This document shows positions 1 through 45,100 of a stretch of 64,000 nt of DNA, one piece after another. The position numbers and the translations under genes are program-made. Source of the DNA: Naegleria gruberi (Eukaryota). The stretch lies in assembly GCA_000004985.1 (NCBI GenBank), contig GG738849.1; one strand, given 5' to 3'. Below the pieces are notes generated by a model. It was not told the origin of the DNA, did not search any database, and saw only the letters and a list, made by a program, of their open reading frames with translations. The first letter of the stretch is position 1. Each line of letters starts with the position of its first letter.

Positions 1-2799
1 TAATTTGACTTTAAATTAAGATAGGTCAAGGTTTGATTAGTTCTCAATGCCTCAGCAAGAGAAAAGCCTCCCAACTCTCCAACCTTGTTCTTTTGCAAGT
101 CCAAATAAGTTAGTGTTTGATTCTTCTTTAGAACTTGTGCCAGACAGATGGCTCCTTTCTCAGTAATTAAATTTCTACCAATTGTAAGAATGAGAATAGA
201 GCTTGAATTCATTAAACCTCTAGACAAGTATTCTACACCCAAATCTCCTAAATTATTATAGTCGAGAGCTAGTTTGGTAATTTCAAAAGGTCTGTTCTTG
301 ATTGGTATCTCTGAGACTTGATATAAAAAGTTAGACAAGTGAATGGTACCTTCAGGGTACATTTCTACACTGCTCAAATCAAGAGAAAACGGAACAGGAA
401 ACTCTGCTCTTTTAGCATTTTGAACACTCTCTATCATGTCACTAAAAACAAATCCTAAATCATCGGATTTTGAGGTCTGTCTACAATCAATACTGAATCC
501 ATATCTTTCACCTGCTGAGCATTCAAGAGATTTTCTTATAACATAATTTGCGCCCACACTTTGGATAGGATTCAAACGGAAGGAGATTGAAGTCAAGGAC
601 TTGTTATGTTCCAAAGTGTCAATAATGATTTTGGCACCTTTAGCACCAATAGAATTCCAACGTAAATCCAAAGTTTGGAGAATGCACTTTTCACTCAGCA
701 AATACTTGGCAATGGCTGGAGCAGATTTATCAGTCAGGAAACAAGCCCCAACGTCAATCAGAGTCAAGTTAGAACATGACTCCAATATTTGGAACAATTC
801 TATGGCTCCCTTATCTTCAATTCTACAACCTCTGATATCAATTTCTTGCAAGTATGTAATATTTACATGAGGAAGGGCTAAACTCTTTACAATTCCTTCC
901 CAACCCTGATATGAGAATCTTCTTCCCTTGATTCTAATATTTTCCAAATAGACTTGTCTATCTTTAACATTTGAATAGTAATCATAAATGTAATCTCCCA
1001 TGATTTTTTCGTGAATTTCTCTACCAAAAACAACACCAGTGGTTGATGAGTAGACTCTAATCTTTTCCTCCTCACTCACAATTGAATCGCTCAATTGTTG
1101 AATATCTATATTGTTCAACCTTTGTTTATAATCTACTGTTCTCGGTTCAATGGATTTTGTCAATTCGTCAAAATTCAATTGTTCAAACTTGGTAAGGGTT
1201 GGTTTGGCAAGATCAGTCAGCCTATTCCACTGTTCTGATGGTGTGAATAAATAATTATCAAGTGTGTACATGAGAGATTCTTGAGAAGTTACCAAATGTG
1301 AAGCTCTTCCACGAGTGATTAAACTTTTTTGAATGTGTCTCAAACCGTCATCTTTGGAAACAATGAAAATCCTAGTGTGTAAATCTGTGATACGATGTAA
1401 TGCACCAGCAATGGCTCCTAGTAAATAATCAGCAGCATCCTTGAACTTTTTAAAGTATCCCTTATCATAAAAATCAAATAAATACTTTTCAAATGAATTC
1501 ATTCCACTCAAATTCTGTTCCGACAATCTGATCTTTACAAAGTGTAGACTGGAACCACGTTCACGAAGTACCTCCTCACTCACCTTGATAGAAGTTGAAT
1601 ATTTTGGACCTGCTACACCTATTAAAAGACAATCCTTTCCATAATCAAAGTTCCTCTCCTTGAGTAAAAAGATTGACTGGCCCACATTATCCAAATCAAG
1701 AAGAATAATATTCTTAAATCTTCCATATGGATTTTCATGTTTCTTCTCATTGAAATGCAAGTCCAGAATGTCCTTTGTGTACCAATTTGGTTCAAATGCA
1801 TTATAGTAACCCCAGACAAAGTATCTCACATTGTCAAGACATGCCTTGTTCATGAAAAATCCACCCCTCTTTACAAAAACCTCCTCAGATATTGTGGAAA
1901 GTGCTGAATCATCAGTTGGAGGTTTCTTTTGTTTCTTTGCTTCTTTCAATAGTTTGTTTCTGATTCGTTTCAATTCCTTCTTGCTCTTCTTTTCTCCCAC
2001 TGTCGAATCCGTTGTTGATGAAGAATCAATAGAAATGTTATCCGATTCTAAAGGTTGTTGTTGTTGATCAGTTGAATTCAATCCCTCTTCTTGTTGAACA
2101 AGATTCAATGGAACAGGTTGAGGATTTTCCTGTTGTTGATTTTGTTGTTGTTGATTTTCTAAGTCCTGTTGTAATAATTGTTGTGTAGCAAGTTTTTGTT
2201 TGACATACTTTTCAACTCCTGGAAATTCCTTCTTCTTTGTTGGAATTGAACTAAATGTTTCAAAATCAACAAATTCATACAATCTCCACCATAATTCCTC
2301 ACAATATAATTTCCACAAACAATCAATATTGGAAACTTTACAAATTTCAAATAATTTATCCATTCTATCACCATCATTTAATATTTCTAAAATTCTTGTT
2401 CGGAAATCAGAGTTATCATCACACTGATCAATTTGACAATAATCAGTGAATAATTTCCTTGCTTCTATCCAAATGGTAGGAATATCCTTTTTGTGAAAAC
2501 ATTTCTTTTCCTTGAAAACTCTAGTGATTGTATAGGTCAAAATTTGTCCAATCTTTTTAATGTATTCTTCATCGAGAATTATTTCTTGATCATCATCGGA
2601 TATGAATTGTGAAAGTAAAAAGGCTTGATTTAATTCCTGTCTTGCAAGGTACATTGACGGAAATCTGCAACATGTTAAATTTAATAACTCAACTAGCAGT
2701 TTTATTCCATTTGATGATGTGTCTTCATCTTGACTGTTCAGAGTTGTAGTAGTAGATAAATTACCACTATATTGATCACCTTGTTGAGAGAGTTCTGAC
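1..2799 (-). CDS. Partial gene (ATG at 2797-2799, runs off window at position 1) for a protein with a central NYN/LabA-like nuclease-type domain followed by ribonuclease-inhibitor-type leucine-rich repeats
   Basis: Translating the minus strand by hand from ATG 2799 gives MSELSQQGDQYSGNLSTTTTLNSQDEDTSSNGIKLL... with no stop down to position 1 (about 930 aa). It is absent from the ORF track because there is no stop in the window. Motifs IILLDLDNVGQSIF and RIFIVSKDDGLRHIQKSLITRG match the NYN/LabA signature (D-x-D-N ... S-x-D-D-G). Downstream are RNI-type LRRs (LDLRWNSIGAKGAKII, LALDYNNLGDLGVEYL, LDLQKNKVGELGG). Confidence 0.55.
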
Positions 2800-2866
2800 A
2801 TTTTTTTTAAATTGTTTACATTTCAAAAGTGCACCTTCTCTCTTCCAAAACTTTTGTAAACATGGT

Positions 2867-4435
2867 CTATTTCAAAATACAAGGGCACAATCTTCTTGTT
2901 AATGCATGTGAATTGTGGCAATTAAAATCACTTGCTCTGAATCCCAAATAGCAATTTCCATGTTTCATGGCTGGTAGACTGCTTGAAGAAGATCCTTTCT
3001 CATAGGAGCATTTGCAATTCTTTGTGAACTTATCAAATTCATCGCATCTGTTAATGTATTCGAAAAAGCTCACATCACACTTTGCTCCTAATTTACTACA
3101 ACACTGATTACAGTTCTCCCCACTATCACAAAATACGCTCTCCACGTTTTTCAAATCTGAAAGTGAAAACCTATGAGTTGGAGCAAAGGAAGGAAGCATG
3201 GCAGTATTGTGAACGAATTCCGCGTTTGCATTACCAACCTCAGTATCTATTTTCTTTTTTATCAATTCTTGGCAAGGTGAGAAAAGAGAATGAGAACAGC
3301 TTTCCAAATCAAAATCAGATTGAGTTTCATAGCATTGAGATTTTTGGCTCTTTCCCAATGAGAGAAGTTGAAATCTGAATCGGAATGAAATTCTATCCTT
3401 AAAATCAGGGTTATCCAAAAAGAAATTGTCCAATAAATATTTGAGAGAATGTCTTGAATCTTTTTTCTTTTCAAAATAATCAATTGTTGTGGTGATATCC
3501 TTTCTGTTAATAATAGTTCCACTCATTCCATGAGAGAGACGATAACTAGACCAATCCTTTCCCTTCTCACCTAAGTGTTGCATATGCTCAAACACCAGAG
3601 AAAGATGAGAGATTGCCCGAGAGCAGATAATAGCACTCTCATCCATGAACAGTAATGGAGCATCGGAAGAACCTATCACTCTTGTAACAGACTCCTCTAC
3701 CGAATTAAAATCATCAAGTATGTATGTTTTCTTAAATAATCTCACCATTTCATAGAATATCTTTGCCCTGGAAGTAGAATCTTGCCCCACCTTACCAGGA
3801 TAATTAATTACATCCACAACAGCTTCGTGTTTCTTCGAGAAATCATCAACAACTTTTTTCAATCTGTCCTTATAATCAATATCTTGATTAAAGAGGACAA
3901 TACATGGATGGAACAATCTTTGCTTGAACCTTGATAAATTATCCAAGTTTCTCTCAATGTGGTCGTATTCGTGTCCAATATGATTAACCTTAGGATTGCA
4001 AGCAATTAGTACAGTCAAATGACATCTTTCCACAGGTAAACTGTACCACTGAGATTCACCATCAATCGGAATGTAGGGTTGATATTTGTATTGTGTCTTG
4101 GGTTGCTCCACAAAGAAAACCATACTAATATGACATAAAGATATAATAAATAATATTTGGAATGTTGTGAATAGGAACCAACTACTAGCAAAAATTGAAT
4201 AAATAAACCTAACAAAACCAAATATTAATCTAAATATCATTATCGGCACTGAAATTATTAAGAAGAATAAATTTAAAATGAAATTCATAAGTCCCTGTCC
4301 TTTTGTAGAGCACAATGTTCTCAGCTTGAAGTTTAAATTCGCCCAGAACTCCCTCCAAAATATCTTTGCAGAGGAGGATGGAAATCTTGTCGAGGAAGTG
4401 ATTACACCACCAGTATTAAAACTCGTTCGAATCAT
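2867..4435 (-). CDS. Type II membrane glycosyltransferase resembling GT13 (N-acetylglucosaminyltransferase I-like), with a Cys-rich C-terminal region
   Basis: Single 522-aa ORF starting at a real ATG at 4435. The architecture is a 49-aa cytosolic tail, one TM helix (MNFILNLFFLIISVPIMIF), a stem and a catalytic region with LTVLIACNP (cf. GnT-I PILVIACDR) and LLFMDESAI (cf. EDDLE). The tail has many Cys. Confidence 0.5.
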   Translation of the reverse strand: MIRTSFNTGGVITSSTRFPSSSAKIFWREFWANLNFKLRTLCSTKGQGLMNFILNLFFLIISVPIMIFRLIFGFVRFIYSIFASSWFLFTTFQILFIISLCHISMVFFVEQPKTQYKYQPYIPIDGESQWYSLPVERCHLTVLIACNPKVNHIGHEYDHIERNLDNLSRFKQRLFHPCIVLFNQDIDYKDRLKKVVDDFSKKHEAVVDVINYPGKVGQDSTSRAKIFYEMVRLFKKTYILDDFNSVEESVTRVIGSSDAPLLFMDESAIICSRAISHLSLVFEHMQHLGEKGKDWSSYRLSHGMSGTIINRKDITTTIDYFEKKKDSRHSLKYLLDNFFLDNPDFKDRISFRFRFQLLSLGKSQKSQCYETQSDFDLESCSHSLFSPCQELIKKKIDTEVGNANAEFVHNTAMLPSFAPTHRFSLSDLKNVESVFCDSGENCNQCCSKLGAKCDVSFFEYINRCDEFDKFTKNCKCSYEKGSSSSSLPAMKHGNCYLGFRASDFNCHNSHALTRRLCPCILK

Positions 4436-5237
4436 TGCGAGCCTCTCTATTCAATGCCTGAGAAGAAAATATTAAGGTTTTTTTTTGATAAGGCTGTTAC
4501 ACTTTGATATGAGTTCAACGGAAAAACACCACGTTATTTGAATTCCATGGAGCTAGATATCGTGTCATCGTCATCATGAGTGTAGACAAGCGAATAACAA
4601 AGTACTTGTAGGAGTTTCATTTTTCGAAATACTTCCACTTGACAGTCATTATGATGACTTTTATATTAATTATTGTAATATTATCTGGTGTTGCTGAAAA
4701 AAGCAGAAAAAAAAGTATTGATTGTAGATGAATTGAGTTAAAATTCATAGCATACAGCTGATTTACACGCAGAAGTTGAAAAGAAACAATTAAGCGAATT
4801 TACAACTGTTAACGATGTTCTTAGTATGATTGGTTCCAAATGGGATTCTATCAAGAAGTTTGTAAATGAATTGCAAAAAAAACGAACTTTGAAAACAGTT
4901 TAGCCCTTGCTTCTCTAAATTCTTATTTGCCAAAGAAGTAGTTGAAAGAAACACAACAAAAGAAAATTGAACAGATTGAAAGAAAAGCATGAGTAATAGC
5001 CCTCAAACATTATCAAACAAATAAATCTTAAATATTATTCAAGTAAACTGTTTTGTAGTGCTTAGCGGATGAAAAATTCATGTCGTACTTGAAATCAGCT
5101 TTCAATCTGCTTGTGTGTGTTTGATGAGAGAAGAGCTGATAATTACAATAGAAAAAAATAGATCCTCTTCTTCTCCATTGCTTCCAATAACAAGTTATTG
5201 TCCCTAAATTTTATTACTATTGGAAAGTTAAGAAAAT

Positions 5238-7246
5238 ATGATGAGAAATTGTAAAAATTGGTTTCATGTTGTTAACAAGACGAGAAATGGTCTTGCATCA
5301 ATGAATAAGAAGAATACATTAACATCTTCCGCACTTGTTAACAGCAGTAATATGCTAATGAATAGAAGTTTTCAAAAGTCAATCATCTCATCATCATTTA
5401 ACAAACAACAATATTCAATGGAAGATTACTTTCATTTGGGACATATTCTTTGTGATCAACATGTTAAAAAGGATGAAAAATCAATTGCGTTGAACTATTT
5501 GACAAGTGATGGAAAATTTCAATATACTTTTAAACAATTGAGTGATTATAGTGAACAGTTTGGTCAATTTTTGAAAAGTCTTGGTTTGAAACGTCAAGAT
5601 AGAGTTTCAATCCTATTACCAAAGTGTCCAGAATTAATGATAAGTGGTCTAAGTATTTGGAGAAATGCAATGACCTATGTTCCTCTATTTACTGCCTTTG
5701 GACCAGATGCTATTGCACATAGAGTTTTTGACTCTGAATCCAAGGTTATCATTACTGATGAGGCTAATCGCCCAAAATTAGATCCCATTCTCAGTCAATT
5801 AGAAGAGAGAGGTGTTAAAATTGTCATTGTTGAGAAGAGTATTGCAGAGAGTATGGCCTATAGAGTAGTGGATGGAAATGCACCACTATTAACCTCATTT
5901 AGCTCTTTCAAACCAAATGAATACAGATTTTGGAATAGTTCAATTTTATCTAGTCAACAAAGACCAATCATTAGAGATTCTACTGGAATGGATAAGAATG
6001 ATATCATGATTCTCTTGTACACTAGTGGTACTACTGGTAAGAGCAAGGTTAGTATTTCTTCTTGTCAATACACTTATTTTTCTAACAATTATTATCAATT
6101 AACATCCATATTAATTATTATTTTGAATTATTTTGCTTGAATATCCAATTTTTAATCTTTATTTAATAATAGGGTGTACCAGTTTCAGTAAAAGCTTTGG
6201 GATCATTTGAAGTGTATATGAAATATGGACTCCATGTTGAACATGATGATGTATTTTTAAATATTGCAGACCCTGGTTGGGCCTATGGCTTGTATTATAA
6301 TGTTTTAGGAACTCTTCTATTGGGAATTCCAACTTATTTTGTCAATAGATCATTCAATCCTCAAGTAATTTATGAAATATTACAAAATGAACGTGTGACT
6401 AACTTTGCTGCAGCTCCAACAGCATATCGAGCAATGAAAGCACAAGGTCCAGAACTAGCTCAACAATACAAGTTTTATCTCAAAAAGGCCAGCTCAGCAG
6501 GAGAAGCATTAAATAACGAGGTAGTTACCTTCTTTGAGAATATTTGGGGTACAAGAATTAAGAGTCACTATGGTCAAACTGAACATGGTATGCTTATTAA
6601 TTATCATCACCATCCAGAATTAGCTCTTTCATCTGTATCGGAGGTAACAACTATTGGACAACCAATTCAAGGATTTACAGTCACTCTGTTGGATGACGAC
6701 TTTAGAGAAATTTCAGAACCCTATGTGAAAGGTCATTTGGTTATTGATATTGCTAACTCACCTGCTAGGTTCTTTACTGGATACTGGAATCAACCTGAAA
6801 AAACTGAGGAAAAAATGGTTCAATCCCCTTCTTATACAGATGGTCGTTTATTTGAATTGACCGGTGATAGTGCCTATAGAGACGAAAATGGCCTTTATTT
6901 CTTTAGTGGAAGAAGTGACGATATTATCACATCTTGTGGTTATCGTATCTCACCAAAAGAAGTTGAAGATTGTCTGATAGAACATGAAGCTGTTTTTGAG
7001 TCTGGAGTTGTAGGTCAAAAGGACGAGTTGAGAACTGAAATGGTTGTTGCATTTGTTGTGCTCAGATCAGGTTATCAGCCAAGCAAACAACTTGAGCAAG
7101 AGTTGTGTGAACATGTCAAGAAAAAACTCTCAGCTCACCAATATCCAAAGAGAATTTTCTTTGAGGACAAGCTTCCATGCACCGAAGCTGGAAAAGTTAA
7201 GAGAAATATTTTAAGGGATAAGGCAAATGCAATGCTATCTCAATAA
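5238..7246 (+). CDS. AMP-forming acyl-CoA synthetase / acyl-activating enzyme (medium-chain ACS family), 2 exons
   Basis: Exons are 5238..6047 and 6173..7246 (627 aa); the intron runs 6048..6172 (GTTAGT ... AATAG). Splicing recreates the AMP-binding motif YTSGTTGKSKGV. The protein also has YGQTE and a C-terminal K of the adenylate-forming superfamily. The ORF-track M at 6197 is a TTG, not a real start. Confidence 0.85.
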
Positions 7247-7482
7247 ATTGAGAATAACTTTTTTACAGAGAGCTTTAGATTTGTATCTTAACAACTCGAG
7301 ATAGTCCACTTCCACATTCCATATTACCAAAAATAGATTTTGAACTGTTCAAACAATTTTTAACATGCATTTTTTAAAGATGATCCAGCCATTCTGATAT
7401 TAGCAAAGATAACACTTTTGAGAAGAAAGTTCAATTCCAATACATTTACCAAAATTTTTTACTCTTAGATTATAATAGAAAT

Positions 7483-8994
7483 TTAAGGCCAGATACCGAG
7501 TTCATTGTAAGAGAGGGTAATCTTATCAATAGCACTGACGTAAGCAGCAGTTCTGAGGTTGACATTCTTTTCACGAGAAATCTTGATAATATTTTCCCAA
7601 GCTTCATGAACAGTACCTTCCAAACCAGAGTAGACAAAGTCTCTTTCTGATGAACCGTGAGTCAAAGTTTGATATTCAGATTCCTTCAATTCACGACCAG
7701 TCAATAATTGCAAGTGACGAACCATTTCTCTCTTGCCTTTTTCTTCAGCCTTCTTTGTCAAACGACCGAATTGAACGTGACCCAAATTCTTCAACCATTC
7801 GAAGTAAGAAACAGTGACACCACCAGCATTACAGAACAAGTCTGGAATGATGATAACACCTTGCTTTTCCAAAATTTCAGAGGCACCTGGAGTAGTTGGA
7901 CCGTTAGCACCTTCAGCAATAATCTTAGCTTGAATCTTGCTGGCATTCTTCAAAGTAATTTGACCTTCCAAAGCAGCTGGGACCAAAATGTCACAATCAG
8001 CTTCCAAGATTTGTTGAGCATTTTCCAAAACCTTCTTACATCTTGGATAACCCAAAATAGTCTTCTTAGCTTGAACATAAGTCTTGACATCAGTAACATC
8101 CAAACCATTTGGATCATAAACAGCACCATCTCTTTCACCAATACCAACAATGATAGCACCATTTTCTTCAAAGAACTTAGCAGCGTGATAACCAACGTTA
8201 CCCAAACCTTGAACAACAACTCTCTTTCCTTCAATACCAGTCTTCAAACCAACAGACTTCATCAATTCAGCATCAGCACAAGCTTCTCTGACAGAGTAGA
8301 AAACACCCAAACCAGTAGCTTCAGCTCTACCACGAATACCGTTTTGAGAAACTGGCTTACCAGTGACAACACCGAAAGCATTGATATCATTTGGATGGAA
8401 AGTTTGATAAGTGTGAGCAATCCAAGACATTTCTCTTGGACCAGTACCATAATCAGGAGCTGGAACATCGATAGCTGGACCAATAACACCACGTTGGATC
8501 AATTCAGCAGCGAATCTACGAGTAACTCTTTCAATTTCTTCAACAGTGTGAGCAGCAGGATCAATACAAATACCACCCTTGGCACCACCGAATGGAACAT
8601 CAACACAAGCACACTTGAAAGTCATCAATGAAGCCAAAGCCATAACTTCATTTCTATTGACCATGGTATCGTAACGAATACCACCCTTGGTTGGGAGTCT
8701 GTGGTGAGAGTGTTGAGCTCTGTAGGCACGGATAGTTTGAACGACCTTCTTACCGTTCTTATCAATTCTTTCGTGTGGGATGATGAATTCATAAACACTA
8801 TCAACTTCCTTGATGAATTGCAAAAGACCAGGTTCGTGGAGAGTAGAGTTGGCAGCCTTGTCAAAGTACATTTCAACTTGTTCCAAGAACTTTGGTTCGT
8901 CGTCTTCAACAGCACTTCTGTTGGCAACAGTTGTGGAGAACAATCTCTTTTGATTGCTCAAGCCCTTGATGAGTTTGGTTGTATTTCTGAGCAT
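7483..8994 (-). CDS. GLUD: Glutamate dehydrogenase (ELFV family, mitochondrial-type, GLUD-like)
   Basis: 503-aa single exon with a real ATG at 8994. It has the GGAKGG catalytic motif, the NAD(P) Rossmann motif GLGNVGYH and an N-terminal basic presequence (MLRNTTKLIKGLSNQKRLF). Confidence 0.95.
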   Translation of the reverse strand: MLRNTTKLIKGLSNQKRLFSTTVANRSAVEDDEPKFLEQVEMYFDKAANSTLHEPGLLQFIKEVDSVYEFIIPHERIDKNGKKVVQTIRAYRAQHSHHRLPTKGGIRYDTMVNRNEVMALASLMTFKCACVDVPFGGAKGGICIDPAAHTVEEIERVTRRFAAELIQRGVIGPAIDVPAPDYGTGPREMSWIAHTYQTFHPNDINAFGVVTGKPVSQNGIRGRAEATGLGVFYSVREACADAELMKSVGLKTGIEGKRVVVQGLGNVGYHAAKFFEENGAIIVGIGERDGAVYDPNGLDVTDVKTYVQAKKTILGYPRCKKVLENAQQILEADCDILVPAALEGQITLKNASKIQAKIIAEGANGPTTPGASEILEKQGVIIIPDLFCNAGGVTVSYFEWLKNLGHVQFGRLTKKAEEKGKREMVRHLQLLTGRELKESEYQTLTHGSSERDFVYSGLEGTVHEAWENIIKISREKNVNLRTAAYVSAIDKITLSYNELGIWP

Positions 8995-11532: not shown

Positions 11533-14500
11533 TTAAAAATTATCAGTGACACCCAACTTTTCCTTCCAATCAAATCCAAGACATACACTCAAATTCCTTA
11601 TCTCATCCTTTTCTTCATTGGTGAGTGGTATTGAGCTGGGGTAATCTTTCAAAGTACCCCATGAATCTCCAATTTGAACCTTTACAGGCAGTGGTACTAG
11701 AAGTTTCTTATCTGTATTCTGCATAATATTTTTTGTACAATAGATAAATGTACTGAGAGAGTCTTCTCTCACTTCAAAGAGTAGCTCATCATGAATTTGT
11801 AGTAACATGTATGCTCTTTCTTCTTTCTTATTAAAATGTCTCATAAATGAATAAATACCTAACATGACTATTTTCATAATATCAGAGGCAGAGCCTTGAG
11901 AAACAGTATTGAGAGCAGCTCTTCTAGCTGCAGCTCTCTTTGATGAATCATCAGAACAAATATCATGGATAAATCTCTTTCTTGAATATGAGGTTTCAAC
12001 ATAGTGCTTTTCCACAAGGTGATTCTCTACAAAGTCCTTATATTGCTTCAATCCTTGATATTTTTCAAAAAAATTTTGCTTGTATCTTTCAGCAGCTTCA
12101 ATTCTATCCTCACCAGGCCTCAACATAAAATCCTCATTCTCACTATTGAACATTTTACCAGAGAGAGTTTCTGAGCCCATACAATAGGAAATTCCATAAA
12201 TGATCTGCTTGACCAGACTTCTATGAGATAATGGAACTGGTTCTTCAGGTCTAAAATTCCAAAAGTTTCTAGCAATTTCCTCAAAAATATCTCTTTCTGT
12301 ATTACTGAGAATGTCTGAAAGGGTTCTATCTTGTGAGAGGTGGGCTAAAATTCTCAATTCAATATTCTTATAATCAATTGAAACCATTACATAACCATTT
12401 CTTGGGATGAAGGCGCTTCTAATACTCAGTGTGATTATGGATTTCTGAGAGAAAGGGTCCTTAATGTCGATATCATTTGGAATATTTTGAAGGTTTGGAT
12501 TCTTGACACTTAAGCGTCCAGTTGCTGAAGTGGTTTGCATTTGAGAGGCAAATATTCTATATTCTTGAGTGTCTGGGCAGTATTTGATATCATTGGGCAT
12601 GTTTTGAATGTGATGAGTCTTAATATTCAGCAAGTATCTGTATTCACTGATTTGCTTCATAATATAAGACTTATCGGGGTAGAGTTTTTTCAACTTTTCC
12701 AATATTTCCTTGTTTGTTTTCCTCTCTGTACCCTTAAGTTTTAATTTATCAAAGAGGAGTAATGCAACATGGTCATTATTGGACACATCAATCTTTTTAC
12801 CATCCAAAATTTGTAAACTGTTCAAATCTCTTGTAATTTCATCGAGTTTAGCATCTATGAGTTTCGTATTATGTTTGATCCAATGATAATTGAAACGTAT
12901 TCCATTATGTTCCATTGTGCTTAAAACTTTGGAGAAGCTCATTTCAAATTCAAACATTTGTCTCAATTCCAAATTAATAATGGATACCATAACAGCAGTC
13001 ATTATTGGCCAACATTGGCTAGCTGTCTTTACAATGACAAACTTGTCATTCTTGGGAGTAAATAGAAATGAATCAGATGGGAAATATTTCAAGTATATTT
13101 CCTCAAGAGTTTTCTCATTATCCGAATCATCTGGATGTTGTACCCAGTCTCCAATCATTGGATCAAGTACGGGATCTTTAACAATTAAGTCCCAAGCCTG
13201 TAAGAGTCTTGTTTGTTGTTTTTTAAATCCGAATGTAAGTTTGGGTTTTCTCTTGTCTTGCAGCATTCGTTTTACTATCTTGGATCTATAATCATCTAGA
13301 TGGATAAAATAGCATTTGCAAGGAATATTTGGATCGATTTTGGTTTCACATCTCTTCTCAAAAGTTAAATAATCCTCAAATACTTCATTAAAACAAATTG
13401 AGAGTCCCTTCACCGTATAAACATCCCTATTCTTAATAAAGGTGGTTGGATTGTCTTGCTTTTTCTTAATTCCAAATTCGAAACAGAATGAAAATACTTT
13501 TGAATTATTCCAACGCTCCAAAAACTCATCAAATAATTGATTATCACCAAGTTTTAGTTCTATCACAGAATCTTCCTTTTTCTTTTTGTGCTCTGCCTGA
13601 TTATCATCAAAGGCGTTACATCTCTTTTTTCCTCTCTTTTTTGGAGAGCTATTTTGGAATAGGAATGTATCTTCGTCTTGTGGCCCAAATATCCACTCTA
13701 AAGGAAGTAATTTCTCCTCTACAATTGCCTTTGCTCCTTCTACAATCAAATTAGCTTTAGTTCTACTTTCTGTTGTGTTTTGAGAGCCTTTAACAAGTAT
13801 ATTTTCGATACTTTCTGGTGTTTCATCAGCAACCTGTGCAATTGTTCTGAGACCAGCACTGAATAACAATCTTGCTCTTGATGAACCAACAAATGGAATT
13901 TGAACAAGAGGTACAAGTTCCTGTCTCACTCCAGAAACAAGTCGTTCTTTGATTTCTTTGAATGCTTCCGAGAAAAAGCTTGGTAAGGCAGCATATTTAC
14001 AAAAACTTGAGAGTACAGATGCTTTTGAGGCAGCATCTTTTTGAACATTTTGTACAGATCCTCTTGCATCTGAGTCTCCAAAATATGTCTCTGCAATATT
14101 TTTGATTGGATATTCCAGTATAATGTCATAGAGTATAAATGTTTTTCTCAATGTGTAGATAGTTTCGCTCAATTCTCGTTGATGACTACTTCTATTTCCC
14201 ACCGACAAGATGTAACCTCTCAATTCATTAATGTCTCTAATCTTGTTATTTACAAATTCTGAAAACTCTCTTCTCTTGATGGCAATATTTACAATTTTTT
14301 CAGCAACTTTTGAGAATGTATCGTTATAATCAGTATGAAATAGACTATTTTCAGAGAAGGAGGCAAGAATGTAAATCATTCCTAGATCATCTTCCAAGTA
14401 GAAATTTTTCAATTCATTCTTAATGGTTTGGTAAAACTTGAGAGAAAGATAGGGACAAATATTGGCGATTTGTGTTGCAAATCCCAATGGTTTACAATCG

Positions 14501-16551
14501 AAGGAGTCTTTACCGTTTATCCATCTAATAAATCCATTCTTTTCCAGAAAAACTTTTGAGTTGATTCCTATACTTCTGAGTTCTTTCTCTGGAATACATT
14601 TCGATAGAAATGTACATTTTAAATAGGACACAATATCATGAGCAGTCCTAATAATACCAGTTGAAATATTTTCCAATAAAGCTCTTGATATGTGTTTTTC
14701 ATTTAGACAAGATTTCATGGGTGTGAATTTGGAAGATAATAATTTTGAACCAGACTCCAACGAAGGAACTATAAGATACGATTCACCCTTTACATCTATA
14801 CCTGCTCTACCTGCTCTACCAGCTGCTTGCTTGTAGTTAACTATTGATAAATCATCCCTACCCATGGTGAGTGAGGAAATAATGACTCTTCTTGCAGGAA
14901 GATTCACACCCTAATAATCATTAAATAGTTTCAATAAATATATTCCTATCTCAATACATGAAAGATATGACTATTAACTTACAGTTGCAAGGGTTGTTGT
15001 ACATAGTAGAATTTTGATCATTCCATTTCTAAATGCCAATTCAACTAACTTTTTCTCTTCCATTGTTAGTGACGAGTGATGAAAACCTACTCCTCTCCCC
15101 ATTGAAAAATTCAAATCAGGATCCAATCCTGTTGTGGATAGTTTGAGGTTAGTTAGTAATTCTTGTCGTTGTTGTACCAAGTGCTCTGGAATATGTTGTG
15201 GTTGATTTTCTTCAGCAATAAACTTGGCAAATAATTTACATTTTAGCTTAGAGCTGCAGAATATAATTGTAGCAAACTCTGTGTCAATTAGTGATAGTAT
15301 GGAAATATTAAATCCATCAGGTAGTTTTTTAGAAACAGTGTAAGGTGTTAGATTTCTTACTAGATTACAATTTGTATCGAATACTTTGGAATCATGTACC
15401 ATGTATTCAGAGAGTGGAACTGGTCTATAATCAGTCACAAACAAGTAGGCATTAAGAAAACTGGCAAGTTTGTCAACATTTGGTAGGGTAGCAGACATCG
15501 CAATGATTTGAATTTTTGGTTTAAGATAAATAATTTTCGTTAGAATGAGTTCTAGAATATAACCTCTATCAGGCTCTGTTATACTATGAAGTTCATCAAT
15601 AATGATGGTTCCAATTTCATCAATTTTGCCAGTCCTAATCAATCCATTCAGAATACTATTTCCTCTCTCAAAGGTACATACCATCACTCTCTCATCATCA
15701 TCATTGAAGGATGCTGTATCAATGAGTTTTACTGCTTCAGAGTGATAGGGATTGGCTTTCCATCCAACATTCTTGAATTTTTCATTCAAATCAGCTACCT
15801 TTTCCTCAATGATAGCTTTAAAAGGAAGCATGAAAACAACTTTTGATTTGTTTCTTGTCAATCTTCGAACCATTATAATTTCACTGACTAGGGTTTTACC
15901 TCCACTTGTTGGAGATGAGTAGATAATATTCTTTCCTCCATCCAGAATTTGATTGTTTTCTAATAATGCTACTTGCCAAGGATATAAAGACTTGTGTTTG
16001 TAATTGTCAGCAATTTGGTAGGGAATGTAATGATAGAGGGATGTGGGATCATTCATATCATCCTCTGTATGAGTGGCTTTTAGTGATGTATTGAGAAGGT
16101 TACTAGTATTGGAAAAAGTTTTATCGGAAGAAGGAATTGTATTGTTCGAATCAGCTTCATCTAATAAATTCACAATTCCACTAATATCCAACTCATCATC
16201 TAGAGTATTTTCCGATTCTTCTCCAATATTCAACTCGTCATCATCTAAATTTTCCAATTGTTCAACTTCGATATCACTAATATCACTTAATTCTAAATCT
16301 TCATCAATATTGAAATAATATTCATCTTCGGGTGTTGATGGACTACCAACAGACATACTGGATCTTGATGATTGACTAAATGGTGGCCAAAAATCCACAC
16401 TAGCCTCACCTGTTGATTTCGGAGTGGTGGTACTCACACTACTAGCAGAAGAAGGATTGGATACATTTTTCAATGTTTTCGGAAGAGGTGTTGCTGCAAC
16501 CACATTTGTTGGTTGTGATTTGTTCTTGTTGTGGTTGTTATTGGAAATCAT
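11533..16551 (-). CDS. POLQ: DNA polymerase theta-like protein: N-terminal superfamily-2 helicase fused to C-terminal family-A DNA polymerase, 2 exons
   Basis: Exons are 16551..14983 and 14910..11533 (1648 aa); the intron runs 14911..14982 (GTAAGT ... TATTAG). The junction rebuilds helicase motif VI TTLAT|GVNLPARRVII. The helicase has GKTLVSE, DELH and SATLPN. The polymerase has the O-helix-like RRAAKAINFG analogue (ARRAALNTVSQGSASDIMK) and motif C LQIHDELLFEV. Confidence 0.85.
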
Positions 16552-17475
16552 CACAGTAACTTTGCCTAATGGTGAGCATATTTTTTTGATGTTTTTTCTC
16601 TAGTTTTTGCTGGAAATTTTTGCCAACCTGCTTTTTTAGGATTACGGTTTTGCCCGCTAAAACATTGTTAAACTTTAAACAAAAATTAAGAAGTTTACAA
16701 ATATTTGTGGCCAGATTTGTTGCTAAAATTAATTCTTTCTTGTGTTATAACATAAGGCATCATGTTCACTACATATGTGGGGAAGAAACAACTGAACACA
16801 TTTTCCTACCAAAATTCAATAACTAAACAATTTTACCAACAATAGGAATCAAGAGGAGGAAAATACTGAAACATACACAGAAACCAACTCTACAACACTG
16901 GACAAAAACTAGACCTCATTGGCAATTGTCACAAAATCAAAGAAACCACAAAAGCTAATACTAGCATCTGGAAAGAAAGGAACGACTGGCTTCCCGAAAA
17001 CAATGAATGGAGCAAAGACCTTAACAAATATGTAAGCATTCTGTAGATAACAATCTACAGCATGCAATTTATTCAACCACGAGTCTGAATGACAATTAAA
17101 TAAATATAAATTAAATAAAAAAAAATTCACTACAAAATGACCACCTCAACTGTCCTCCTTATTTGCAACAATTCCCAAATGCAAAACCAATAACAGCCAA
17201 GGTTCAATAAAAGTGTTCGATTTAATCACCAAATCTACTCAAATCACCATCTATCAGATGAAAAACTATCTGTTACTGATATCCAATAGTCCACCAAATG
17301 AACTAAATGCATCATCCAACCACTTTTCCCTCTTTTTAAAGTAAAAAAAACGCCAACAATCCATCTGATGCAAAGAATCATGCTTCTCTGCAGTGTGTGT
17401 TGCCATAAAAATTACCCAAATTGAAAAAATTTCAAACTCTTTGCGCAATACAACAACAAATTAAAGAACGCAAAT

Positions 17476-36796: not shown

Positions 36797-38973
36797 ATGA
36801 TCACATCCACACTCCTCTTCTCTCTCCACATTGGAATCAGTTATTACAAACATTATTCCTTTGTGAGTGGATATAATCAAGTAATGGAAAAACACAAACA
36901 AACTTTTGTGACCGATGAAACTCTACTCACCATTCTATCACCCTATTTTCTATTGTTAATATTGGAAAATATTCTATCGAGTATATTATTGGATTTACCT
37001 ATTGTATTATTATTGGCTATTAGTTTATTAATTGGTATGTGTATTAATCTATCATTATTAAAACAGTTTAAATATATATTAACATTTTATAACAATATAT
37101 ATAATCATCAAAATATTAACATTTTACAATCTATTATCAATATATATTTGTTTTTAATATATGAAAAGTTGGAGGATTATATTATAAGAAACCATCTCCT
37201 ATTGTTAGTGTAGCGTCATCCTCATCAACATCATCCTCATTAACTATATATTCAATTGTGTCCAATCTTGTTATTGACAGTTTATTCATTTCACTTTTAT
37301 TAATTGAATCAAGTGGAAATTTCTACAAAATCCTATTAGCAATCATGTATATTATTACTGCCTTTGGACTTGTCAAGACACTTTCCTATACCATCTACTA
37401 TTCACATACTCAATTACTTGTCAAATTAGCTCAATTTTTCATTCCAATTAGAATTAATTCTGAAATTAGACAAATTGCTCATGATTTGTACAAATTTGAT
37501 TTTAATTCTTTGATTGCCTATGTAATGACTTTATTTTCTATTGTAATTATATTGTTACCTTTGGCATCTGGTGGTCAGGAATTGAAAGGAAAGTTGATTA
37601 TTTTATTTGGAACTAGTTTATTACAATTAGTTCATTTACCACAAATTCAACATTATTTACAAAAAGCAATTTCATTGGATGAATTTGTTAAATCTAAATT
37701 GACTAGTATTGTTCCTGTTGGTGGTAGTACTGAACATTCTCAACCAAAGACAAGCCAAGTAGTTTCGAATATTTCCTCCTCATCTTCTGTTAAAGAAAAG
37801 GCTAAATTATTCGAAAATAATAAGGAACAACCACAACAACAACCTATTGTTGAAAAGAAGCCAGTTATTGTCAAGAAACCAATTGAACAACCTTCAGCAA
37901 CTAGTCAACCTGCTCAACCAAAACAAGTTTCCAAATTGGCCTCAACTAGTACAACATCTTCTACTATTGAAAAGGAACAACCAACCATTGTAAAACCTTC
38001 TACTGTAGTTGCCACTGAATCTATTTCTAAGAAACCAGTTGAAAAGCCTTCAAATAATATTCCAACTAGTCAACCAGAAATTTCTAAACCAATTATTCCA
38101 AAAGAAACAATTCCACCAAAAGAAGATACCAAATTAACTATCACACCATCAGAATCTTCTACTAATGCTGCCAATGTGAGTGGTGGTGTTAAAATTTCCA
38201 AACTCAATCTCTCACAACTTTCCAATATTCCACCTTCCACTGATAATGCAACTTCTGCTGAAACTCTTTCATCTGCCAGAGATTCTTCACGTGACAGTGG
38301 TTCTCTCTCAGCTAGACGTTCAGGTTCCTTTGTAAATATCATGAAAAATGTTCAATCTCCAAGGGATTCAATGAATTCACCTCGAAATACTTCAGCACTT
38401 GATGGAGTGACAAGTCCACGTGGTACTGCTTTGTTATCACCAAGAAATAGTAGTAATTTCAGTCAGATTGCTGAGAGAATGAAACAAAAATTGAATTTGA
38501 AACCTAAAGTTGAATCAAATGGGCCAGTGGTTGAAAGTTCATCTACTCAATTGGGACAAACTCAAAAATTGCATGAATCTCCTAATACTATGGACAAATT
38601 CAAGAAGGCTAAACTGGCTCAACCTCGTAAAGAACGTACACGTGCCAATGTCAAACAATTACTCAATAACGTCCAAGAATCCAATGAAAATTTAATAGAG
38701 CTACCTAAACAAGACGATTTTGAAAAATTAGAACAAGCATCTAAAAATGAAAAGAAATTTGGACTCACCAATCCAATCTTTAGATTACCTCCTCCTCAAT
38801 CATCTATTTTACCATCTGCATCCTCAACTGTTGAAGAAAAAGAAGAAAAAAAGGTTAATCTCGATAAGGTTATTGGAAAATCAAAACAACAACAAGGAAT
38901 GGGTGGAATTGACTTACAATCTGTATTGAATGCAAGAAACAAATTAAAGAAAACAGGAGAAGAATTGAAATAA
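36797..38973 (+). CDS. Membrane protein with multi-TM N-terminus and long S/T/P-rich disordered tail ending in a WH2-like motif; probably 2 exons
   Basis: ORFs 36797..37213 and 37258..38973 are probably joined by an AT-rich intron (about 37037..37277). The exact donor is uncertain. The C-terminus GGIDLQSVLNARNKLKKT resembles a WH2 actin-binding motif. Confidence 0.4.
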
Positions 38974-42197: not shown

Positions 42198-45100
42198 TTA
42201 TAAGAAATCAAGAGTTTCTTCTGTTGTGTGATGAGTGTGAGAATGAGAGGAATGATGGTTACGAGAGTGATCCATGAGGGAACCAACAATTTCATCATCC
42301 TTACTCATGTATGAACTGAAACGGAGATGACTCAAGAGGGCATCCTTCAATTGATTAATGTTTTGTTCTTCAAGATTGGCGCTCTTTTCCTCCTTTTCTT
42401 CCTTTTCACCACTTTCTGCCTTCTCTAAAGTGTATGATCTCAGAGTTGGGAAGAAGGTAATATATTGCTTTTGAGCCAACTCGGCAACATATTGCTCAAT
42501 ACCTGTATATTCATCTTTTGGTTTCTTTTCGAGATAGATTAAAAAGTAAACATAATTCCACATGTTGTGTTCCTTCTTAATGTGTCCTTCAAAGGTAATA
42601 CCTTCATTGGCACGAACGTCGAATCTGGACTTTTCATTAGAACATATAAAGCAGAAACCTGACTTTTCCTCATCCAATTCTTGTTTCTCTTCTCTTCTTT
42701 CACTGAAACTTTCAAGCACAATACCGAAAACAACATTGACCAAAATAATGATAATCAAGAGTGAAAAGTACAAATCAATAAAGATACGGGTGACATCAAG
42801 TGGGTATGGATCAGTAATATCTTCCCAGAAACCACCTCCACGAAGACCATAATTGACAATGGACATGAAGCATGTTAATGTTTCCTTACAAACAATAACC
42901 TTGTTGAAAACAAACTGATCATACTTGAAGGAAAACATGAGGAAGGTGTGAACAATCATGGCAAATGCAGTCAAGACACCAGTGTAGAATAACTTTTCAT
43001 AATTTTGACCAATGGCAACAATAATATCCAATAAACCATCAGGAGATAAGAAGATTATTTCAAATGTCAATATAATATATGCCAAAGGTGTTACAAATAT
43101 ACCAATCAAAATCATGCAGAAATAGATTAAAATCCACCACAAGTAAGGATCTTGAGCAGTGTACAGGGCAAACTTTCTGAAAAATTCACGATCCTTATGC
43201 AATGTATCCCACGATTGATCCTTCTCCAGTTTGAATTTCTTCTTAATGTTCAACATTAGGAAGAAGTACAAGTGTATTCCCAATAATCCAAAGGTTAACA
43301 ATAATAGTATGAGACCCAATATTTCAACCACAATACCAATAGGCATATAATTAAAACTATTTCTATACTGTATGCCATCTGGTAGGGCAATACCTGGAAC
43401 AACTACTGGACCAGAAATTGAATCAAACTGTTTAGTATATGTAGCAGTGACCAGAATATTAATGAGTACTGCAATCAAAAACACTCCAACCTTAATCTTG
43501 TACCAATTCTTTTCTATAAATTTCCATCCTCTTGCTTTCAAACTATTTGGATTGTCCATAAGACTCTTCAAGTGCATCATTTCAATTCTTGCAATTTGAT
43601 AAGTCCAATCAAAGAGGGATTTCACCTTGGTTTGTGGAGATTCTCTGTTACAGCTTTCAACAAACTCATCCTTGGTAGATTCTTGTAAATGTCTACATTG
43701 TTTGATGATTTTAAAGTGAACGATTTCTAATTGGTTATCTCTAATGACTTCTATGGTACCAACTCTTGATTCATAGTAATTGAGCCATGCCTTTTCTCCT
43801 TCATCCATTTGACTAATAGTCTTGTCTTCCGAGTCAAGATAGTCTGGAGTAATTTCATTGAAATCAAAGTCCAAATATTTAAGGAGAATGAAAATAGAAA
43901 TACCAATGTTTTGGGATTTCTTGATGCAAGTACGAACATCAGCAGGATTAGGCGTTTCTGTCTTGTTTTCAAAAGCAAGTATTTTCTTGATTTTTTCCTT
44001 ATATTCTGAATGACCGTCTGTGAATAAAATCATGAGTTTGCATAATGACTTGAAATCTAGGGACTTTTTGATATGATTCTTTGAAATTTTGTTACCACCT
44101 TCTAACATACTGGTAAGAAGAATGATAATCTTTTCAATCAGCTCTAGTTCATCCTCAACCTTCAAGTGATCAACAAATTCACCTTCCAAATCGTCATCTG
44201 GGAAGTCCATATCCTTATCTTCTGGATCAAGAGATTTTCTACCCAAAATTTCATTAATGACAGTCATTAATCTGGTTGAGGAGGCAAGTTCAATAGATGT
44301 TTCAATACAAGGACCTTGAATCATTTCATTGAGAGTATCGAATGCTTGAATAAAGTTTTCAGCACTGTCTTCGCTCAAATACTTGAACAAACCCAAAACA
44401 TAGTCAATACATTCGGAAACTAGATTTACGGAAATCTTATTGAAAGGTTGATTGTAGAGCATTTGTTGATTTGGCAAGTAGTGACCTTCACACAACAACT
44501 TTAAAAAGAGCAAGACATCCTTTGCATTGGTTGTATCATGTTGAGCATCTTGGGAATTATTTCTCTTTCTTATAGAGAAGTATTCCTTAACTTCGTAGGT
44601 TGATTGTCTGAGACGGTTCTTCATGGCCATAAAGAATGACTCATAATTGCCACTTCTGACAATAGTACCAACAACCTTTCTGGTTTCAACTGAGGTCAAC
44701 ATTTCATGAGAGAGTTTGAGAGCTGGAACAACAATTTCATAATCCGCTGTCAAAAGTTGCAAGACCAATTCTGGTATTCCATTTTCAACAGAAAATTCTG
44801 GCTTTTGATCTTTGATAGCATACTTGATGGTTTCAATAGCTCCAATAAAGGTCTCAACTAAATCTTTGGTAATACCAATGGACATGATTCTTTGTAAAAC
44901 CCCAATTAGTGTCTTGAATTGACCTTCATAGGCGTTAACAAACAATTTGGCCAGATCTGAGAAGATTGATTCTGCACTTTGAGCTTGAATTGATTCAATG
45001 AAAAGCTTGAAACGTTTGGCTACTTCGTTACCAACATCAACTGTGAGTGCCTTGTTTTGAATGGCTTGTGGTGGAACAATCTTGACAAGGGCATTTCTCT

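What the first reader, a model, noticed from the sequence alone, without database searches (positions are those of the whole stretch)
1..2799. NYN-type nuclease domain fused to RNI-like leucine-rich repeats (gene missed by ORF track, truncated at window edge)
The minus strand from ATG 2799 is one uninterrupted reading frame to position 1. It carries LLDLDNVG ... IFIVSKDDG, the D/D/N + S/D/D acidic signature of NYN/LabA-like PIN-fold nucleases. These are followed by ribonuclease-inhibitor-type LRRs. A predicted RNase-like catalytic module joined to an LRR sensor/scaffold is an architecture reminiscent of innate-immunity sensor logic (nuclease effector + LRR), and it is not a commonly described combination. 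The N-terminal ~250 aa has no recognisable domain. The gene starts only about 67 bp downstream of the stop codon of the preceding same-strand glycosyltransferase gene (2867).
Basis: partly seen in the sequence, partly recalled or inferred. Interest (0 to 1): 0.6.

Follow-up and report, generated by a model that had tools for sequence, protein, structure and literature searches.

The report
Amoeba NYN-like nuclease fused to LRRs
This is a real but uncharacterised Naegleria gruberi gene that joins a probable NYN/PIN-type nuclease domain to a long ribonuclease-inhibitor-type leucine-rich-repeat arm; the combination was found only in a handful of free-living amoebae, is apparently undescribed, and has no tested function.

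Summary
The ATG is at 2801-2799 on the minus strand, and the frame stays open for 933 codons to the window edge. The window is Naegleria gruberi NEG-M. The protein is collinear (58% identity) with N. fowleri FDP41_005967, a 1415-aa hypothetical protein, so about 380 aa of C-terminal LRRs lie outside the window.

D369, D371, N372, D458, S482 and D484 are invariant across seven homologues that diverge to 27% identity. An exhaustive search of 1.84 billion proteins found only six clusters, all with the same architecture. No NTPase switch and no defence-system match were found, so the immune-sensor idea remains speculation.

Verdict: a new architectural variant of a known nuclease kind, of moderate interest.

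The parts
1..2801 (-). 5' part (933 codons) of a protein-coding gene of Naegleria gruberi. It is truncated at the window edge, and about 375-390 further codons of LRRs are expected to the left.
   Evidence: Open frame. Collinear with N. fowleri P0007 aa 189-1023 of 1415 (58% id) and with P0002 up to aa 909 of 1282. Organism identified.
2799..2801 (-). Start codon ATG in an A-rich context (AAAAAAAATG), with an in-frame TGA 8 codons upstream at 2825-2823.
   Evidence: Sequence read.
2802..2866 (-). 65-nt spacer between the stop of the upstream same-strand GT18-like gene (2867-4435) and this ATG.
2232..2705 (-). Family-specific N-terminal helical module (aa ~33-190) with three conserved blocks: LNLTxxRFP..E(L/I)xxxF; RVFKEKKCxHxxDxPTIWIEARxLF; WKLYCEELWWRLYxFxDYxxFSxIPT. 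It has no known homologue.
   Evidence: Alignment A3 with invariant K, W, F, EE, W. No Pfam or PDB match.
1866..2231 (-). Low-complexity linker (aa 191-312). It contains an N. gruberi-specific Q-rich insertion (aa ~188-236) and a conserved basic stretch KKSKKELKRIRNKLLKEAKKQKK (aa 271-293, window 1923-1991). That the basic stretch is NLS-like or nucleic-acid-binding is inference only.
   Evidence: Gaps against both orthologues. No plausible in-frame intron.
1227..1865 (-). NYN-group PIN-like domain (aa 313-525). Two N-terminal helices are followed by a five-strand beta-alpha core.
1680..1703 (-). Motif LLDLDNVG (aa 367-374) at the C-terminal end of predicted strand beta1. D369, D371 and N372 are invariant. 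It corresponds to the NYN 'DxxN' motif.
1419..1448 (-). Motif KFKDAADYLL (aa 452-461) at the start of the long helix before beta4. K452, K454, A457, D458 and L461 are invariant. It aligns with MARF1 'AKNAADDKL'.
1344..1370 (-). Motif IFIVSKDDG (aa 478-486), which is strand beta4 plus the acidic pair. S482 and D484 are invariant, and position 485 is D or E. It aligns with NYN 'LVSGDGDF'.
1305..1313 (-). Invariant RGR (aa 497-499) between the helix after beta4 and strand beta5, at the position of the NYN 'rerGk' turn.
882..1226 (-). Conserved inter-domain region (aa 526-640; ...VSEEEKIRVYSSTTGVVFGREIHEKIMGDYI...IRIKGRRFSYQGW). It probably packs as the N-terminal cap of the LRR solenoid (inference). 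The N. fowleri orthologue has an intron after ...KGRR, and the window copy does not.
3..881 (-). Ribonuclease-inhibitor-type LRRs (aa 641-933). Regular 28/29-residue units start at aa 651, 679, 708, 736, 841, 869 and 897, with an irregular but conserved stretch at aa 764-840.
   Evidence: LRR_6 E 3.7e-18. PDB sequence hits are to RNI-like LRR proteins, RNH1 and NLR LRRs. Unit spacing.

Best explanation
The region is the first two-thirds of a genuine Naegleria gruberi gene for a protein of about 1300 aa with four parts. These are a family-specific N-terminal helical module, a low-complexity linker with a basic stretch, a NYN-group PIN-like domain, and a long ribonuclease-inhibitor-type LRR solenoid. 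The most likely mechanism is that the PIN-like domain is an active metal-dependent endonuclease. D369/D371 at the end of strand 1, D458 at the start of the helix before strand 4, and D484/D485 after strand 4 would line the C-terminal edge of the parallel sheet and bind Mg2+ or Mn2+, as in MARF1, Regnase-1 and other NYN enzymes. The substrate is most probably single-stranded RNA. The LRR arm would be the specificity or regulatory module, binding a protein or RNA partner that recruits the nuclease to its targets or releases it from an autoinhibited state. Shown here: the gene is real and conserved, the LRRs are real, the architecture is the same in every homologue, and the putative active-site residues are invariant. 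Inferred: the NYN fold assignment (about 75% likely), catalytic activity, RNA as the substrate, and the role of the LRRs.
Confidence: 0.55

Rival explanations
1. The central domain has a PIN-like fold but is not a nuclease. It would serve as a protein- or nucleic-acid-binding module, and the protein as a whole would be an LRR scaffold or adaptor, for example in a cytoskeletal, axonemal or RanGAP-like regulatory role.
For: PIN_11 in ZNF451 has no demonstrated nuclease activity and is reported to mediate protein interaction. Its deletion only modestly affects ZATT function. The best PDB sequence matches of the LRR part are axonemal LRR proteins, RNH1 and RanGAP1, and one homologue was auto-named 'RanGAP'.
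Against: All acidic positions expected for a PIN/NYN metal site are invariant at 27-39% overall identity, while the surrounding sequence has diverged. That pattern is typical of retained catalysis. The LRR matches reflect only the generic RNI-type repeat. Balamuthia has no known flagellate stage (background knowledge), which argues against an axonemal role.
Confidence: 0.2
2. It is an NTPase-less innate-immune sensor-effector of amoebae. The LRR arm would recognise a viral or bacterial ligand, and binding would unleash the NYN RNase on foreign or host RNA, by functional analogy with RNase L (repeat sensor plus RNase) or NLRs.
For: The architecture pairs a repeat sensor-type domain with a nuclease effector-type domain. 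The known distribution is restricted to free-living amoebae that are hosts of giant viruses and intracellular bacteria. The five best structural matches in the viral library are all from giant viruses of amoebae.
Against: No NACHT, NB-ARC, TIR, Death or other signalling or switch domain was found. There is no match to PADLOC defence models. The gene appears single-copy and well conserved (58% between Naegleria species, collinear), with no sign of the lineage-specific expansion or rapid diversification typical of immune receptors. Neighbouring genes are housekeeping. No sequence-level relative was found in viral contigs.
Confidence: 0.1
3. It is a DNA-directed nuclease acting in the nucleus on DNA repair or replication intermediates, in line with the role of the nearest named relative, ZNF451/ZATT, in TOP2-DNA crosslink repair.
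Against: Characterised NYN-group enzymes (MARF1, Regnase-1, KHNYN, N4BP1, PRORP, Rae1) act on RNA (PMC5499597, and the titles). No DNA-binding domain is detected. The ZNF451 link is distant and covers only the catalytic half of the domain.
Confidence: 0.1
4. The domain is a HAD-type phosphatase rather than a PIN-like nuclease. The invariant D-x-D-N-V would be HAD motif I (DxDx[T/V]), K452/K454 would be motif III, and the 'DD' after strand 4 would be motif IV.
Against: No HAD-family Pfam model hits any of the 7 members even at E<=10, while PIN_11 and PIN7 hit 6 of 7. The HAD motif II Ser/Thr at the end of strand 2 is not conserved; the invariant residue there is Gly. The invariant AAD458 helix motif and N372 have NYN counterparts but no HAD counterparts. 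The model has a helix directly after strand 1, with no flap hairpin.
Confidence: 0.05

Closest known systems
PIN_11 (Pfam PF18479; C-terminal PIN-like domain of metazoan ZNF451/ZATT) and bacterial PIN_7 (PF18475), both in the NYN-like group of Matelska et al. 2017
   Same: These are the best and only recurrent Pfam matches, hitting 6 of 7 family members each, and the Balamuthia member scores above the PIN_11 threshold. All share a compact NYN-variant core with about four conserved acidic residues, and the K-x-A-A-D helix followed by hhhS-x-D strand is shared.
   Different: PIN_11 was described as Eumetazoa-specific and fused to C2H2 zinc fingers, and PIN_7 as bacterial. This family is from Heterolobosea and Amoebozoa and is fused to RNI-type LRRs and its own N-terminal module. 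The window protein scores below both gathering thresholds. The Cys/His residues noted for PIN_11 were not examined here.
Canonical NYN domains: MARF1 (PDB 5yaa, 6fdl) and VPA0982/LabA-like (PDB 2qip), Pfam PF01936
   Different: There is no significant PF01936 hit. Identity is 15-17%. The acidic pair is DD rather than DxD, and there is an extra Asp at +2 in the beta1 motif. MARF1 pairs NYN with RRM and LOTUS RNA-binding domains, not LRRs.
PRORP (protein-only RNase P): PPR repeats + NYN metallonuclease
   Same: The design logic is the same: a NYN-type nuclease joined to a solenoid repeat domain that supplies substrate recognition.
   Different: The repeats there are PPR (RNA-binding alpha-solenoid) rather than LRR, with a zinc-binding connector. 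The domain order is reversed (repeats N-terminal). No sequence relationship was detected here.
RNase L (ankyrin-repeat sensor + pseudokinase + KEN RNase) and NLR immune receptors (NACHT/NB-ARC + LRR)
   Same: A repeat domain that could sense a ligand lies in cis with an effector. The LRRs are of the same RNI/NLR subtype (PDB sequence hits to NLRP3, NLRP1, NOD2-like and NLRX1 LRRs).
   Different: There is no NTPase or pseudokinase switch, no oligomerisation domain, a different RNase fold, and no evidence of an immune role.
Uncharacterised proteins of amoeba-infecting giant viruses (Marseillevirus LCMAC201 A0A481YWL2, Pithovirus LCDPAC01 A0A481YND2, Mimivirus L218, Orpheovirus A0A2I2L4K6)
   Same: These are the best Foldseek matches to the domain model in the viral structure library (E 1.5e-4 to 2.4e-3, probability 1.00). 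One of them also carries a dsRNA-binding motif. Their hosts are amoebae.
   Different: TM-scores are only 0.36-0.49. No sequence-level relative was found in 2.9 million viral contigs. None is known to carry LRRs. Their sequences could not be retrieved for direct comparison.

Membership tests
Pfam PIN_11 (PF18479) | HMM score at or above the gathering threshold (26.6 bits) | tested here: not met
   The window protein scores 13.6 bits full-length, and the domain alone scores 18.4-20.3 bits, E 0.0024 to 6.5e-4. The homologue P0006 (Balamuthia) scores 34.1 bits, E 3.5e-8, and passes. Six of 7 members hit at E<0.1.
Pfam PIN_11 (PF18479) | [quoted passage not shown] | tested here: met
   D369, D371, D458 and D484 are invariant, and position 485 is D or E.
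Pfam PIN_11 (PF18479) | Eumetazoan distribution and fusion to C2H2 zinc fingers (ZNF451 architecture) | tested here: not met
   The organisms are Naegleria and Balamuthia. No zinc-finger domains are present; the partners are LRR_6 repeats.
Pfam NYN (PF01936) | Significant HMM match | tested here: not met
   There is no hit for the window protein, and only 1 of 7 family members hits, at E 0.06.
NYN-like group of the PIN domain-like superfamily | PIN-like three-layer alpha/beta/alpha fold resembling solved NYN domains | tested here: inconclusive
NYN-like group of the PIN domain-like superfamily | Motif series: beta1 D-x-x-N; mid-helix Asp; beta4 S-x-D-x-D; Gly turn before beta5 | tested here: met
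   D369-L-D-N372, KDAAD458, S482-K-D484-D485 (DD instead of DxD) and R-G498-R are all invariant. They are in register with 2qip and MARF1 in hhalign, although those scores are not significant.
NYN-like group of the PIN domain-like superfamily | Metal-dependent endonuclease activity | not testable with these tools
   This requires a biochemical assay.
RNI-type leucine-rich repeats (Pfam LRR_6, PF13516) | HMM above threshold and alternating 28/29-residue units with LxxLxLxxNxIgxxG cores | tested here: met
   64.5 bits vs a cutoff of 23.4, E 3.7e-18. Unit spacing is 28/29/28 and 28/28. PDB sequence hits are to RNH1 and NLR LRRs.
NLR / STAND immune receptors | Central NACHT or NB-ARC NTPase between effector and LRR | tested here: not met
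   No NTPase family appears in the Pfam scans of the window protein or of five homologues. There is no PADLOC hit.
HAD phosphatase superfamily | Motifs I-IV (DxDx[TV]; S/T at the end of strand 2; K/R; acidic pair) and a HAD-family HMM match | tested here: not met
   Motif I and IV-like patterns are present, but the motif II S/T is not conserved, and no HAD family is hit at E<=10 in any of the 7 members.

The most novel reading that the evidence does not exclude
The family is a minimal, NTPase-less sensor-effector of amoebal innate immunity. The RNI/NLR-type LRR arm would hold the NYN RNase in check until it binds a molecule from a giant virus or an intracellular bacterium, and the nuclease would then degrade viral or host RNA. 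This would be an independent, protist invention of the 'repeat sensor + RNase' logic seen in RNase L, possibly with evolutionary ties to PIN-like proteins of giant viruses.
Probability: 0.1. Interest if true: 0.8.

Novelty: new variant of a known kind. Interest (0 to 1): 0.4.

Why it matters
If the domain is an active nuclease, this is a previously undescribed way of deploying a NYN/PIN enzyme, tethered to an RNI/NLR-type LRR solenoid instead of the usual KH, RRM, LOTUS, zinc-finger or PPR RNA-binding modules. It would also extend the PIN_11/PIN_7 branch, described as metazoan plus bacterial, to Heterolobosea and Amoebozoa. The orthologue in the pathogen Naegleria fowleri (FDP41_005967) and a homologue in Balamuthia mandrillaris are both currently uninformative 'hypothetical' or 'LRRC74A' entries. 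The family has no detected relatives outside a few amoebae, so it could serve as a lineage-specific marker or target. On the practical side, neither homology search returned an N. gruberi protein for this locus. The reference annotation may therefore lack or mis-model the gene, but this could not be proven.

Tried and rejected
(1) Translation from exactly 2799 is full of stops; the true frame starts at 2801.
(2) Single-sequence AlphaFold of aa 305-628 was unusable (pLDDT 32.5).
(3) A profile search of PDB sequences with the domain alignment found nothing, and the same search with the N-terminal module also found nothing.
(4) Foldseek against PDB gave only generic Rossmann-like matches.
(5) The afdb50 library was unavailable.
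(6) I tried to recover the sequence left of the window through neighbouring genes. The GT18 ORF and the annotated GDH model are not on record, so the 3' end of the gene could not be completed.
(7) The word-indexed homologue search with the LRR part returned nothing and missed even known orthologues. The same index also missed P0002-P0004. Absence from that index is therefore not evidence of absence, and I do not claim that the gene is unannotated in N. gruberi.
(8) Scans of viral and metagenome contigs with the domain alignment found no relatives.
(9) The Q-rich insertion as a retained in-frame intron is rejected. The only in-frame GTATGT..AG options would delete the conserved basic stretch.
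(10) The HAD phosphatase reading is rejected for lack of any HMM signal and of motif II.
(11) A known prokaryote-type defence system is rejected (PADLOC).
(12) Functional linkage to neighbouring genes is rejected. The neighbours are unrelated housekeeping genes in a eukaryote.
(13) hhalign against single NYN sequences gave the correct register but non-significant scores.

Full report
OBSERVATION. Translating the minus strand from 2799 gives a frame full of stops. The sequence around it reads ...TTAAAAAAAATGTCAGAACTC..., with the ATG at 2801-2799. From there the frame is open for 933 codons to the window edge, whereas the other two minus-strand frames have dozens of stops. An in-frame TGA lies eight codons upstream. 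The ORF is missing from the ORF list only because ORFs that run off the window are not listed. The upstream same-strand ORF 2867-4435 does match Glyco_transf_18, and the spacer is 65 nt. Both quoted peptides are present: LLDLDNVG at aa 367-374 and IFIVSKDDG at aa 478-486.

ORGANISM AND GENE REALITY. Three other ORFs of the window are exact matches to Naegleria gruberi NEG-M proteins XP_002681708.1, XP_002681874.1 and XP_002681881.1, on an 850-kb scaffold. The window is compact eukaryotic DNA with short introns; for example, an AMP-binding enzyme is split over 5238-6140 and 6197-7246. The best homologue (P0001/P0007) is N. fowleri FDP41_005967, a 1415-aa 'hypothetical protein'. In its contig the gene has two canonical GT..AG introns, after ...IKGRR and after ...LSK. 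The N. gruberi copy lacks both. The window protein is collinear with the N. fowleri protein over aa 79-933 vs 189-1023 at 58% identity, and with a second, metagenomic homologue, P0002, up to aa 909 of 1282. About 375-390 residues of C-terminal LRRs therefore lie beyond the left edge. I could not retrieve that flank. A Q-rich stretch (aa ~188-236) is absent from both orthologues, but it is not a retained intron, because the only in-frame splice options would delete conserved sequence.

DOMAINS. LRR_6 is hit at E 3.7e-18. PDB sequence matches are all RNI-type LRR proteins: RNH1, NLR LRRs and axonemal LRR proteins. Seven regular 28/29-residue units are visible, interrupted by an irregular conserved stretch. 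The canonical NYN model PF01936 does not hit. What does hit, below threshold, are two PIN-clan families: PIN_11 (13.6 bits full-length, 18.4-20.3 bits for the isolated domain, gathering cutoff 26.6) and PIN7. According to Matelska et al. 2017 (PMC5499597), PIN_11 (the C-terminal domain of metazoan ZNF451) and the bacterial PIN_7 cluster with NYN and form a 'minimized NYN variant' in the NYN-like group.

THE FAMILY. An exhaustive phmmer search of aa 305-628 against 1.84 billion representative proteins gave only six hits. They are N. fowleri (70% identity in the domain), P0002 (63%), P0003 and P0004 (36-38%, unknown protists), a fragment P0005, and Balamuthia mandrillaris KAL6073093.1 (P0006). 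Every one has the same architecture: N-terminal module, central domain, then LRR_6 repeats. P0006 passes the PIN_11 gathering threshold (34.1 bits, E 3.5e-8). In P0003 the PIN_11 alignment spans profile positions 3-102, which includes strand 1. Scanned individually, 6 of 7 members hit PIN_11 (best E 2.8e-10) and 6 of 7 hit PIN7 (best E 2.1e-8). No other family recurs even at E<=10. In the seven-sequence alignment (A2) the invariant positions are L367, D369, D371, N372, G398, F444, Y445, K452, K454, A457, D458, L461, G466, H469, R470, S482, D484 and R497-G498-R499, with D or E at position 485.

RIVAL FOLD. The motif D-x-D-N-V also fits HAD motif I. I reject a HAD phosphatase for four reasons. 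No HAD model hits any member at E<=10. The motif II Ser/Thr is not conserved. The invariant AAD helix motif and N372 have NYN counterparts but no HAD counterparts. The model has no flap after strand 1.

OTHER PARTS. The N-terminal ~190 aa is not featureless. It forms three conserved blocks shared by all full-length homologues (A3), with no Pfam or PDB match. A conserved basic stretch (KKSKKELKRIRNKLLKEAKKQKK) precedes the PIN-like domain in the Naegleria-type members. That it is NLS-like or nucleic-acid-binding is inference only.

FUNCTION. I commit to the following model, at a confidence of about 0.55. The protein is a metal-dependent NYN-type endonuclease, most likely acting on RNA as characterised NYN-group enzymes do. 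Its specificity or activation is provided by the LRR solenoid, through a bound protein or RNA partner. The design parallels PRORP (PPR repeats plus NYN). The fixed architecture and the invariant acidic constellation are shown here. Catalysis, the substrate and the role of the LRRs are inferred. The main rival (0.2) is a non-catalytic PIN-like module in an LRR scaffold protein. The nearest named relative, the ZNF451/ZATT PIN-like domain, has never been shown to cleave anything and contributes only modestly to ZATT function. For the immune idea I found no switch NTPase, no PADLOC match, no sign of expansion or rapid divergence, and housekeeping neighbours. In its favour are the restriction to free-living amoebae and the fact that the five best matches in the viral structure library are all giant-virus proteins of amoebae. 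These matches are weak (TM 0.36-0.49) and have no sequence-level echo in viral contigs.

NOVELTY. Both domains are known kinds. I found no paper describing their fusion: the PIN superfamily catalogue never mentions LRR, and the other searches found nothing either. The family is tiny and unannotated. I class it as a new variant of a known kind, with interest 0.4. Whether the N. gruberi reference annotation contains this gene could not be established. No N. gruberi protein appeared, but the word index is demonstrably leaky.

Noticed in passing
window 1-8994 vs L001 10001-16443: Partial microsynteny with rearrangement. In N. fowleri the PIN-LRR gene is immediately followed by a convergent glutamate dehydrogenase gene (FDP41_005968). 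In N. gruberi the GDH gene (7483-8994, minus strand) lies upstream of the gene's 5' end, with a GT18-like gene and an AMP-binding enzyme gene in between.
   Followed up: partly
window 5238-7246 (+): An AMP-binding (acyl-CoA synthetase-like) enzyme is split across two ORFs (5238-6140 and 6197-7246), most likely by one short intron of about 57 nt. This is a useful local confirmation that the window is intron-containing eukaryotic DNA.
   Followed up: partly
window 11533-16554 (-): Adjacent ORFs encode a DEAD/ResIII helicase (14974-16554) and HTH_61 + POLQ_helical + DNA_pol_A domains (11533-14907). Together they look like one DNA polymerase theta gene interrupted by a short intron.
   Followed up: no
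window 42198-49103 (-): A 2301-aa ORF carries MIR, RIH, RIH_assoc and Ins145_P3_rec domains. It is an IP3-receptor/ryanodine-receptor-like calcium channel in Naegleria.
   Followed up: no
window 2867-4435 (-): The upstream neighbour matches Glyco_transf_18 (GnT-V/MGAT5-like) only over its last ~90 residues (32.9 bits). This family is best known from metazoa. The exact 522-aa ORF product is not in the protein collection, which suggests a different or missing gene model.
   Followed up: no
model of window aa 313-525 vs BFVD: The five best Foldseek matches in the viral structure library are all uncharacterised proteins of amoeba-infecting giant viruses: Marseillevirus LCMAC201, two Pithovirus, Mimivirus L218 and Orpheovirus. 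One of them carries a dsRNA-binding motif, and a Hyperionvirus 'NYN domain-containing protein' ranks ninth. No sequence-level relative was found in viral contigs, and no literature on L218 was found.
   Followed up: partly
window 37258-38973 (+) and 58048-59757 (-): Two long ORFs (571 and 569 aa) have no Pfam match at E<=1e-5. They may be further lineage-specific Naegleria genes.
   Followed up: no
L001 4222-9429 (-): In N. fowleri the gene upstream of the orthologue encodes a 1735-aa ABCG-type (ABC2_membrane) transporter with a very long Cys-rich extracellular-looking N-terminal region. No counterpart is visible next to the N. gruberi gene within the window.
   Followed up: no
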